A stretch of 64,000 nt of DNA. It comes from Escherichia coli (GTDB taxonomy: Bacteria; Pseudomonadota; Gammaproteobacteria; Enterobacterales; Enterobacteriaceae). The position numbers are program-made. Every line of letters begins with the position of its first letter. The first letter of the stretch is position 1. Below are positions 14,468 through 16,041 of this stretch, in pieces. The stretch is taken from NCBI RefSeq assembly GCF_050320075.1, contig NZ_CP190018.1. The stretch is one strand, 5' to 3'.

Positions 14468-16041
14468 CTATTAATCGTCTGATCGGACTTGTTCGGCGTA
14501 CAAGTGTACGCTATTGTGCCATTCGAAACTTACTATAGTGCGACTTACAGAGGTATTGAATGAAACGTGCAGTGATTACTGGCCTGGGCATCGTTTCCAG
14601 CATCGGTAATAACCAGCAGGAAGTCCTGGCATCTCTGCGTGAAGGACGCTCAGGGATCACTTTCTCTCAAGAGCTGAAGGACTCCGGCATGCGTAGCCAC
14701 GTATGGGGCAACGTAAAACTGGATACCACTGGCCTCATTGACCGCAAAGTTGTGCGCTTTATGAGCGACGCATCCATCTATGCATTCCTTTCCATGGAGC
14801 AGGCAATCGCAGATGCTGGCCTCTCCCCGCAAGCTTATCAGAACAACCCACGTGTGGGCCTGATTGCAGGTTCCGGTGGTGGTTCCCCGCGTTTCCAGGT
14901 GTTCGGCGCTGACGCAATGCGCGGCCCGCGCGGCCTGAAAGCGGTTGGCCCGTATGTGGTCACTAAAGCGATGGCATCTGGCGTTTCTGCCTGTCTCGCC
15001 ACGCCGTTTAAAATTCATGGCGTTAACTACTCCATCAGCTCCGCGTGTGCGACTTCCGCACACTGTATCGGTAACGCAGTAGAGCAGATCCAACTGGGCA
15101 AACAGGACATCGTGTTTGCTGGTGGCGGCGAAGAGCTGTGCTGGGAAATGGCTTGCGAATTCGACGCGATGGGTGCGCTGTCTACCAAATACAACGACAC
15201 CCCGGAAAAAGCCTCCCGTACTTACGACGCTCACCGTGACGGTTTCGTTATCGCAGGCGGCGGCGGTATGGTAGTGGTTGAAGAGCTGGAACACGCGCTG
15301 GCGCGTGGTGCTCACATCTATGCTGAAATCGTTGGCTACGGCGCAACGTCTGATGGCGCAGACATGGTTGCTCCGTCTGGCGAAGGCGCAGTGCGTTGCA
15401 TGAAGATGGCGATGCACGGTGTTGATACCCCAATCGACTACCTGAACTCCCACGGTACTTCGACTCCGGTTGGCGACGTGAAAGAGCTGGCGGCTATCCG
15501 TGAAGTGTTCGGCGATAAGAGCCCGGCGATTTCTGCAACCAAAGCAATGACCGGTCACTCTCTGGGCGCTGCTGGCGTACAGGAAGCTATCTACTCTCTG
15601 CTGATGCTGGAACACGGCTTTATCGCCCCGAGCATCAACATTGAAGAGCTGGACGAACAGGCTGCGGGTCTGAACATCGTGACCGAAACGACCGATCGCG
15701 AACTGACCACCGTTATGTCTAACAGCTTCGGCTTCGGCGGCACCAACGCCACGCTGGTAATGCGCAAGCTGAAAGATTAATTTGGAGTAGGTCGGATAAG
15801 ACGCGTCAGCGTCGCATCCGACATTACGCGCCAATGCGGCCTCCGGCACTAACGCCAAAGGGAACCCGATGGTTCCCTTTTTCACATCATTGACAATCGC
15901 CGCCTGTTCCAGGCAAACTTCCCGCTTTGTCGATTTCCTTCTGAAAAGACGTGCGCGTTAAATCCTGCCAACGCACCGTAACCCTGAAACCAGAGAGATG
16001 AGACGGGGAAATTCCTCGCCTTGCGCTGCATTCTGGAGTAA

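What the first reader, a model, noticed from the sequence alone, without database searches (positions are those of the whole stretch)
14477..14512. Adjacent FadR-like and FabR-like operators upstream of fabB
gtctgatcggacttgtt (FadR-type box) is immediately followed by the near-palindrome ggcgtacaagtgtacgct (FabR-type site). This is the arrangement expected for dual control of unsaturated fatty acid synthesis genes, activation by FadR and repression by FabR.
Basis: partly seen in the sequence, partly recalled or inferred. Interest (0 to 1): 0.25.

Follow-up and report, generated by a model that had tools for sequence, protein, structure and literature searches.

The report
Known FadR and FabR operators of fabB
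This is the well-studied control region of the E. coli fabB gene, where the activator FadR and the repressor FabR bind side by side on the promoter to set how much unsaturated fatty acid the cell makes; it is real, strongly conserved and already known.

Summary
The window is E. coli chromosome, with mnmC (-) and fabB (+) diverging across a 158-bp spacer.

- **Sequence.** GTCTGATCGGACTTGTT lies at 14477-14493, a single C at 14494, and GGCGTACAAGTGTACGCT at 14495-14512.
- **Match to K-12.** The FabR 18-mer is identical to the published K-12 fabB FabR palindrome. The FadR 17-mer differs from the K-12 site at one outer position that varies freely between genera. K-12 probes containing this segment are bound by FadR in published gel shifts.
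- **Same layout at fabA.** E. coli fabA has FadR box, one C, then FabR box. Used as a probe, its 36-mer finds this site with 6 mismatches; the next best match in 64 kb has 15.
- **Conservation.** The 41-bp core 14479-14519 is invariant in 5425 of 5426 complete E. coli genomes, although this spacer allele is rare. In 80 Enterobacterales species, 75 keep both boxes, 73 of them with the same 1-nt gap.
- **Promoter geometry.** With the published K-12 start site, FadR sits at about -47 to -31, over a weak -35. FabR fills the spacer and touches the -10.

Verdict: already known, low interest.

The parts
14477..14493 (+). FadR operator (17 bp, GTCTGATCGGACTTGTT). It lies at about -47 to -31 from the inferred start site and overlaps the -35-like hexamer.
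   Evidence: Sequence. It is 16/17 identical to the K-12 site GGCTGATCGGACTTGTT and 15/17 identical to the fabA site AACTGATCGGACTTGTT. Matrix rank is 1 of 127,968. The core 14479-14493 averages 1.66 bits across 79 Enterobacterales sequences, against 0.4-0.5 bits in the flanks.
14494..14494 (+). Single C between the two operators; also the last base of the -35-like hexamer.
   Evidence: Invariant (2.0 bits). The 1-nt gap is kept in 73 of 75 species that have both boxes.
14495..14512 (+). FabR operator (18 bp, GGCGTACAAGTGTACGCT). Perfect 7-bp inverted arms at 14496-14502 and 14505-14511. It lies at about -29 to -12, filling the -35/-10 spacer and sharing T14512 with the -10.
   Evidence: Identical 18/18 to the FabR palindrome marked in the K-12 fabB probe of PMC4537474. 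It contains the core ACAnnTGTnnnnT of PMC4804515. Mean 1.79 bits across genera.
14489..14494 (+). -35-like hexamer TTGTTC (3/6 match to TTGACA), inside the 3' end of the FadR box.
   Evidence: Inferred from the 17-nt spacing to the -10 and from the published start site. It is too weak for the consensus promoter scan, which found nothing.
14512..14517 (+). -10 hexamer TATTGT.
   Evidence: T14512, A14513 and T14517 are 99-100% conserved, while the middle positions vary between genera as TATTGT, TAAAGT, TAGAGT or TATCTT. It lies 6 nt upstream of the base homologous to the K-12 start site.
14524..14524 (+). Inferred fabB transcription start (plus or minus 1-2 nt), by homology to K-12.
   Evidence: [quoted passage not shown] The position was transferred to the window through the alignment. 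It was not measured in this strain.
14448..14462 (+). CpxR box of the fabB promoter, here GTCAGgctgcGCAAA. This is a third, upstream activator site.
   Evidence: K-12 has GTAAGgctgcGCAAA at -112 to -98 from the ATG, with a DNase I footprint at -119 to -94 (PMC7083825). The window has C instead of A at 14450.
14549..14553 (+). Shine-Dalgarno sequence AGAGG of fabB.
   Evidence: Sequence. Conserved as AGAGGTATTGAATG across genera.
14560..15780 (+). fabB coding sequence (406 aa, beta-ketoacyl-ACP synthase I), the regulated gene.
   Evidence: ORF. RefSeq annotation lies under the matches. K-12 b2323.
12395..14401 (-). mnmC, the divergent neighbour. Its true start is GTG at 14401 by homology to K-12, so the shared spacer is 14402-14559.
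   Evidence: K-12 annotation and spacer length of 158 bp. The 688-aa TTG ORF over-extends into the spacer.

Best explanation
Positions 14477-14512 are the dual operator of the E. coli fabB promoter.

**FadR.** When it carries no ligand, the GntR-family dimer FadR binds the 17-bp box centred near -39. That box overlaps a weak -35 (TTGTTC), and binding raises transcription about 2-fold. Long-chain acyl-CoA made from exogenous fatty acids releases FadR, and activation is lost.

**FabR.** This TetR-family repressor binds the adjacent 18-bp palindrome, which fills the 17-nt spacer and touches the -10 hexamer (TATTGT). It therefore competes with or hinders RNA polymerase. Repression is strengthened by unsaturated acyl-ACP or acyl-CoA and relieved by saturated species. 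fabB output therefore tracks the balance of saturated and unsaturated acyl chains.

**What is shown and what is inferred.** Shown here: the sequence identity, the placement, the conservation and the statistical singularity of the site. Taken from the literature on K-12: protein binding, the direction of regulation, the ligands and the start site. Inferred: that the same holds for this allele, which differs from K-12 at one non-conserved base inside the operators.
For: - **Identity.** The FabR box is 18/18 and the FadR box 16/17 identical to K-12. The K-12 fabB gel-shift probe TCTATTAAATGGCTGATCGGACTTGTTC*GGCGTACAAGTGTACGCT*ATTGTGCATTC has the sites marked. FadR shifts that probe, and fabB-lacZ falls 2 to 2.5-fold in a fadR mutant.
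- **FabR regulation.** FabR represses fabB in E. coli and in Salmonella, where ChIP shows binding. The ligand logic is described.
- **Paralogous layout.** fabA reads AACTGATCGGACTTGTT C AGCGTACACGTGTTAGCT. Its 36-mer finds only this site: 6 mismatches, against 15 or more elsewhere.
- **FadR matrix and pattern tests.**
- **Variation within E. coli.** The 41-bp core is 100% identical in 5425 of 5426 genomes. The whole 158-bp spacer is at least 99% identical in only 27.
- **Variation between genera.** In 80 Enterobacterales species, 75 have both boxes and 73 keep the 1-nt gap. Information content is 1.66 to 2.0 bits in the boxes and 0.4 to 0.5 bits in the flanks.
- **The one differing base.** Position 2 of the FadR box varies freely between genera (GG 35, CG 15, TG 9, GT 7 and others). 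It is also T in the fadBA site.
- **Geometry.** It follows from the published start site at -37.
- **Regulators.** fadR is present in 5422 and fabR in 5424 of 5426 E. coli genomes.
Against: - No binding or expression test was done on this allele.
- Against the strict FadR consensus aaCTGGTCnGACC(T/A)Gtt the box matches only 12 of 16 specified positions. With a matrix built from fad-gene sites alone it ranks 6th, not 1st. It is recognisable mainly as the fabA/fabB subtype.
- The consensus promoter scan finds no sigma-70 promoter here, so the -35 and -10 assignment rests on homology to the K-12 start site and on conservation.
- fadR and fabR are not in the window, so their presence in this particular strain is inferred from the species.
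- The primary papers could not be read: Campbell and Cronan 2001, Zhang 2002, Zhu 2009, Feng and Cronan 2011 and McCue 2001.
Confidence: 0.96

Rival explanations
1. The operators are present, but in this rare allele fabB regulation differs quantitatively from K-12. Possible causes are T at position 2 of the FadR box, one extra C between the -10 and the start site, and a weakened upstream CpxR box.
For: - The allele differs from K-12 at 14475, 14476, 14478, 14450 (in the CpxR box), by +1 C at 14519 and by -1 nt at 14537.
- It is found at 99% identity or more in only 27 of 5425 genomes.
- Replacing the whole CpxR box abolishes acid induction in K-12.
Against: - The 41-bp core, including both operators (positions 3-17 of the FadR box) and the -10, is identical to K-12.
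- Position 2 of the FadR box is unconstrained between genera.
- The GCC form after the -10 is common in Citrobacter and Salmonella.
- The CpxR box is loosely defined in the source paper, matching 8 of 10 positions even in K-12.
Confidence: 0.08
2. The boxes serve the divergent mnmC gene, either instead of fabB or as well as fabB.
For: The spacer is shared. The FadR box lies only 75 bp from the mnmC start codon at 14401.
Against: - The spacing of the boxes to the fabB ATG is conserved: the FabR box ends 40-73 nt from it, median 47.
- The boxes overlap a conserved -10 oriented toward fabB.
- The same composite precedes fabA, which has no mnmC neighbour.
- No promoter-like site was found on the minus strand.
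- The papers read here name fabA, fabB and yqfA as the FabR targets known in E. coli and do not list mnmC.
Confidence: 0.03
3. The motifs resemble the operators by chance, or the palindrome acts as an RNA or DNA hairpin rather than a protein-binding site.
For: Palindromes of this 7+2+7 shape occur about as often as chance predicts: 6 found against about 4 expected. The strand can form a small hairpin of -6.5 kcal/mol.
Against: - The composite match separates from the rest of the window by 6 against 15 mismatches.
- The site is invariant in 5425 genomes and conserved across 75 of 80 species.
- It lies upstream of the start site, so it is not transcribed from the fabB promoter.
- There is no Rfam match, and the fold z-score is only -1.95.
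- Gel-shift evidence is published.
Confidence: 0.01

Closest known systems
E. coli K-12 fabB promoter: FadR site plus FabR palindrome (Campbell and Cronan 2001; Zhang et al. 2002; Feng and Cronan 2011; probes in PMC4259882 and PMC4537474)
   Same: It is the same locus (mnmC-fabB spacer) with the same order and 1-nt gap. The FabR box is 18/18 and the FadR box 16/17 identical, the -10 is the same, and the distance to the ATG is within 1 nt.
   Different: Position 2 of the FadR box is T rather than G. The 3 nt just upstream read ATC rather than AAT. There is one extra C after the -10 and one base fewer in the 5' UTR. These are allelic differences only.
E. coli fabA promoter: FadR site at about -40 followed by the FabR palindrome
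   Same: The architecture is identical: AACTGATCGGACTTGTT, then C, then AGCGTACACGTGTTAGCT. Of 36 positions, 30 are shared with the window site. Both promoters are activated by FadR and repressed by FabR.
   Different: It is an unlinked paralogous site with 4 differences in the FabR box. fabA has additional start sites (S1, S2 and an acid-induced S3), whereas fabB has one.
FadR repressor operators of the fad regulon (fadBA, fadL, fadD, fadM)
   Same: They share the 17-bp pseudo-palindromic recognition sequence aaCTGGTCnGACC(T/A)Gtt, the same protein and the same acyl-CoA release.
   Different: Those sites overlap the start site and repress. This one lies upstream, over the -35, and activates. 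It has CTGATC rather than CTGGTC in the left half and scores lower with a fad-only matrix (9.9 bits against 17-21 bits).
Shewanella and Vibrio fabA/fabB regulation ('fad regulon contraction', PMC4537474)
   Same: Shewanella fabA keeps the same composite, AGCTGATCGGAGTTGTT T AGCTTACACGTGTTCGCT. The window site has 8 mismatches to it over 36 positions.
   Different: In those genera fabB lacks the FadR site. The window, like 75 of the 80 Enterobacterales sampled, keeps it.

Membership tests
FadR operator (GntR-family FadR binding site) | A 17-bp pseudo-palindrome matching aaCTGGTCnGACC(T/A)Gtt | tested here: met
   It matches 12 of 16 specified consensus positions (consensus). The pattern CTGRTCNGACYWGTT matches exactly and only once in the window, against 0.16 expected. 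Matrix rank is 1 of 127,968 with six sites and 6 of 127,968 with the five fad-gene sites.
FadR operator (GntR-family FadR binding site) | Same sequence and locus as a site shown experimentally to bind FadR | tested here: met
   16/17 identical to the K-12 fabB site within the gel-shift probe. The differing position is unconstrained across genera.
FadR operator (GntR-family FadR binding site) | For an activating site: a position upstream of or overlapping the -35 (about -40) rather than over the start site | tested here: met
   The box lies at -47 to -31 from the start site, which was transferred from K-12 RACE data. This is an inference by homology, not a measurement in this strain.
FadR operator (GntR-family FadR binding site) | Physical binding by FadR and release by long-chain acyl-CoA | not testable with these tools
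   Published for the K-12 probe only.
FadR operator (GntR-family FadR binding site) | The cognate regulator gene is present in the genome | tested here: inconclusive
   fadR is outside the window. It is present in 5422 of 5426 complete E. coli genomes, so it is very likely present here, but this was not verified for the source strain.
FabR operator (TetR-family FabR/YijC binding site) | An 18-bp imperfect palindrome of the type (A/G)GCGTACAnnTGT(A/T)(C/A)GCT | tested here: met
   Identical 18/18 to the palindrome marked in the K-12 fabB probe. It contains the core ACAnnTGTnnnnT. It is the best match in the window to the fabA and Shewanella FabR sites, with 4 mismatches each.
FabR operator (TetR-family FabR/YijC binding site) | Placement directly 3' of the FadR site, upstream of an unsaturated fatty acid synthesis gene (fabA or fabB) | tested here: met
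   The gap is 1 nt, the same as in fabA and in 73 of 75 Enterobacterales fabB promoters. The box ends 47 nt before the fabB ATG.
FabR operator (TetR-family FabR/YijC binding site) | Overlap with core promoter elements, consistent with repression | tested here: met
   The box occupies the 17-nt spacer and shares T14512 with the conserved -10 hexamer TAnnnT. The geometry is inferred from the K-12 start site.
FabR operator (TetR-family FabR/YijC binding site) | Binding by FabR, modulated by unsaturated versus saturated acyl-ACP or acyl-CoA | not testable with these tools
   Literature only. fabR is present in 5424 of 5426 E. coli genomes.

The most novel reading that the evidence does not exclude
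The source strain carries a rare, roughly 3% diverged mnmC-fabB segment, probably imported by recombination. Its FadR/FabR/-10 core is untouched, but the upstream CpxR box is weakened (GTAAG to GTCAG at 14450) and the stretch between the -10 and the start site is 1 nt longer. That could reduce or retune Cpx- and acid-dependent induction of fabB in this lineage while leaving lipid feedback control intact.
Probability: 0.1. Interest if true: 0.25.

Novelty: already known. Interest (0 to 1): 0.05.

Why it matters
FabB catalyses the rate-limiting, essential step of unsaturated fatty acid synthesis, and this 36-bp dual operator is how E. coli matches fabB output to membrane lipid status and to exogenous fatty acids.

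The by-products have modest value. One is a clean natural footprint: the core is invariant in 5425 genomes and in 75 of 80 genera, with a fixed 1-nt gap. The others are a few lineages that have lost the FadR half only, and a rare allele with a variant CpxR box.

Tried and rejected
- **Promoter and terminator scan of 14300-14700.** Nothing was found. The -35-like hexamer matches only 3 of 6 positions, which fits an activator-dependent promoter, so this says nothing against the site.
- **Rfam scan of 14250-14750 at E up to 1.** No match, so an RNA element is rejected.
- **Single-strand DNA fold of 14470-14520.** -6.5 kcal/mol, z = -1.95. This is unremarkable, and a hairpin function is rejected.
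- **Palindrome rarity.** The 7+2+7 shape alone is not beyond chance, so it was not used as evidence.
- **Strict FadR consensus and fad-only matrix.** These give only a moderate score, so the site is best recognised as the fabA/fabB subtype.
- **Other FadR-like hits in the window.** The best is 33501-33517, which lies inside an ORF and is treated as chance.
- **Primary papers not held in the library.** Zhu 2009, Campbell and Cronan 2001, Feng and Cronan 2011 and McCue 2001 could not be read. Their content is cited only through papers that could be read.
- **Control of mnmC by these boxes.** Considered and judged unlikely.

Full report
**1. What is in the sequence**

One search shows gtctgatcggacttgtt at 14477-14493, a single c at 14494, and ggcgtacaagtgtacgct at 14495-14512. 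The 406-codon ORF at 14560-15780 begins 47 nt after the second box.

The 261 bp around the site are 100% identical to several complete E. coli chromosomes, E24377A among them. RefSeq annotates fabB (beta-ketoacyl-ACP synthase I) and mnmC under the match. The K-12 MG1655 region has the same gene order: flk, yfcJ, fabB, mnmC, yfcL.

By homology to K-12, mnmC starts with GTG at 14401 on the minus strand. The divergent spacer is therefore 14402-14559, 158 bp. The 688-aa TTG ORF listed over-extends into it.

**2. More than chance?**

- **Composite match.** Published gel-shift probes give the E. coli fabA site as AACTGATCGGACTTGTT C AGCGTACACGTGTTAGCT. Used as a 36-mer probe on both strands of the window, it finds 14477-14512 with 6 mismatches; the next best match has 15. 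The Shewanella fabA composite gives 8 against 15.
- **FadR box alone.** The pattern CTGRTCNGACYWGTT occurs once, against 0.16 expected.
- **FadR matrix.** A log-odds matrix from six published FadR sites (fadL1, fadL2, fadD1, fadD2, fadBA and fabA, with fabB left out) ranks the 17-mer first of 127,968 positions. With the five fad-gene sites only, it ranks sixth, at 9.9 bits; the training sites score 17-21 bits.
- **Strict consensus.** Against aaCTGGTCnGACC(T/A)Gtt (PMC9329746) it matches 12 of 16 specified positions. It belongs to the CTGATCGGACTTGTT subtype shared by fabA and fabB.
- **Palindrome shape.** The FabR box has perfect 7-bp arms around a 2-nt centre, but such palindromes are no rarer than chance (6 found, about 4 expected). 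The significance lies in the specific sequence.

**3. Identity with the characterised K-12 site**

The alignment with K-12 shows 14479-14518 to be identical to K-12, followed by one extra C at 14519. The K-12 fabB probe used in gel shifts is TCTATTAAATGGCTGATCGGACTTGTTC*GGCGTACAAGTGTACGCT*ATTGTGCATTC. The FabR palindrome is marked between the asterisks and the FadR site precedes it (PMC4537474; PMC4259882).

Published evidence on that K-12 site:
- FadR from E. coli, Vibrio and Shewanella shifts the probe.
- A DNA-binding-defective FadR (W60G) does not shift it, and fabB-lacZ falls 2 to 2.5-fold in that mutant.
- fabB is a direct FabR target in Salmonella, by ChIP and transcriptomics.
- fabB is upregulated in an E. 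coli fabR deletion strain.
- FabR bound to C18:1-ACP represses fabB, and C16:0-ACP competes and relieves the repression (PMC11525553).
- FadR is released by long-chain acyl-CoA.

Inside the 36 bp, the window differs from K-12 only at 14478, position 2 of the FadR box (T for G). T also occupies that position in the fadBA operator ATCTGGTACGACCAGAT.

**4. Promoter geometry**

[quoted passage not shown] Through the alignment, the homologous base in the window is about 14524. The resulting positions are:

| Element | Window coordinates | Position relative to start |
|---|---|---|
| FadR box | 14477-14493 | -47 to -31 |
| -35-like hexamer TTGTTC | 14489-14494 | -35 to -30 |
| FabR box | 14495-14512 | -29 to -12 |
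| -10 hexamer TATTGT | 14512-14517 | -12 to -7 |

The FabR box thus fills the 17-nt spacer and shares one base with the -10. This arrangement suits an activator at a weak -35 and a repressor that occludes the core promoter.

The consensus scan finds no promoter because the -35 matches only 3 of 6 positions. The -10 assignment is supported by cross-genus variation of the form TAnnnT, with T, A and the final T 99-100% conserved. This geometry is inferred by homology and was not measured in this strain.

**5. Conservation within E. coli**

- The 41-bp core 14479-14519 is found at 100% identity in 5425 of 5426 complete genomes.
- The whole 158-bp spacer is at least 99% identical in only 27 genomes, and 90-95% identical in 5302.
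- Against K-12 there are 15 differences in the spacer, none of them between 14479 and 14518.

**6. Conservation between genera**

An unbiased fetch of fabB loci from 80 species of Enterobacterales and close relatives gave these results:
- 75 have both boxes, defined as a FadR core with at most 2 mismatches and a FabR box with at most 5.
- 73 of those have exactly the 1-nt gap. Two Edwardsiella species have 2 nt.
- Information content is 1.66 bits in the FadR core, 2.0 at the C, 1.79 in the FabR box and 1.30 in the rest of the -10 region. The flanks give 0.49 bits upstream and 0.40 downstream. A gapped MAFFT alignment gives the same conserved island.
- Positions 1-2 of the FadR box are free: GG 35, CG 15, TG 9, GT 7 and others. 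The window's one difference from K-12 therefore falls at an unconstrained position.

The exceptions are informative:
- Rosenbergiella (L044, L055) and Schmidhempelia (L072) keep the FabR box but have no FadR box.
- The endosymbiont Gullanella (L075) has a decayed FabR box.
- Alkalimonas (L081) has only a FabR-like site, 96 nt from the ATG.

Loss of FadR control of fabB outside the enterics is already reported for Shewanella and Vibrio.

**7. Regulators**

fadR and fabR are not in the window. They are present in 5422 and 5424 of 5426 E. coli genomes respectively.

**8. Rivals**

- **RNA element or hairpin.** Rejected: no Rfam match, a fold z-score of -1.95, and the site lies upstream of the start site.
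- **Control of mnmC.** Unlikely: the spacing and the -10 orientation are conserved relative to fabB, and the same composite precedes fabA.
- **Allele-specific change in regulation.** Not excluded, but the differences fall outside the constrained core.

**9. Verdict**

The feature is the already-known FadR activator and FabR repressor dual operator of fabB. Novelty: already known. Interest: low.

Noticed in passing
window 14448-14462: The published CpxR box of the fabB promoter is GTAAGgctgcGCAAA in K-12, at -112 to -98 from the ATG, and is footprinted by CpxR (PMC7083825). In the window it reads GTCAGgctgcGCAAA, with A changed to C at 14450. That lowers the match to GTAAA-N5-GTAAA from 8 of 10 to 7 of 10. 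The second half-site lies in a cross-genus conserved block, GCGCAAATTT at 14456-14465.
   Followed up: partly
window 12395-18100: The mnmC-fabB-yfcJ-flk segment is a rare allele, about 3% diverged from K-12 (88-100% identity per 100 bp). The fabB coding sequence is at least 99% identical in only 23 of 5425 E. coli genomes, and the spacer in only 27. Most genomes sit at about 97% for fabB and 90-92% for the spacer. This suggests a recombinational import. Parts of the spacer (GT at the FadR box, cttactatagtgcgac) match other genera such as Lelliottia (L041) exactly.
   Followed up: partly
window 14413-14431: GTCTGAC occurs twice, 12 nt apart (14413-14419 and 14425-14431), in the mnmC-proximal part of the spacer. 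GTCTGATC then opens the FadR box at 14477. K-12 has GTCTTAC and GGTGGCT at the corresponding places, so the repeat is specific to this allele. Neither copy scores as a FadR site.
   Followed up: no
L044, L055 (Rosenbergiella), L072 (Candidatus Schmidhempelia bombi), L075 (Candidatus Gullanella endobia), L068 and L069 (Edwardsiella), L081 (Alkalimonas); about 40-130 nt upstream of position 1201 in each locus: These lineages show exceptions to the dual operator. The FadR box is lost and the FabR box kept in Rosenbergiella and Schmidhempelia. The FabR box has decayed in the endosymbiont Gullanella. Edwardsiella has one extra nt between the boxes. Alkalimonas has a FabR-like site only, 96 nt from the ATG. 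Whether these genomes lack fadR or fabR was not checked.
   Followed up: no
window 33501-33517 (-): CGCTGGTACGATTTAGA is the best FadR-matrix hit in the window when only fad-gene sites train the matrix (14.6 bits). It lies inside the 3' end of the ORF at 33473-34366 (-), so it is probably a chance match.
   Followed up: partly
window 14338-14355 (-): AGGGTACACCTGTTTCCC, inside the 5' end of the mnmC coding sequence and about 140 bp from the real operator, has 5 mismatches to the fabA FabR site and contains ACAnnTGT. It is one of only two distance-5 hits in the window. It could be chance or an auxiliary half-strength site.
   Followed up: no
window 12395-14461 (-): The mechanical ORF list extends mnmC to a TTG at 14461 (688 aa), running over the CpxR box region. 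The annotated K-12 start corresponds to GTG at 14401 (668 aa), so the extension is an artefact of ORF calling.
   Followed up: yes
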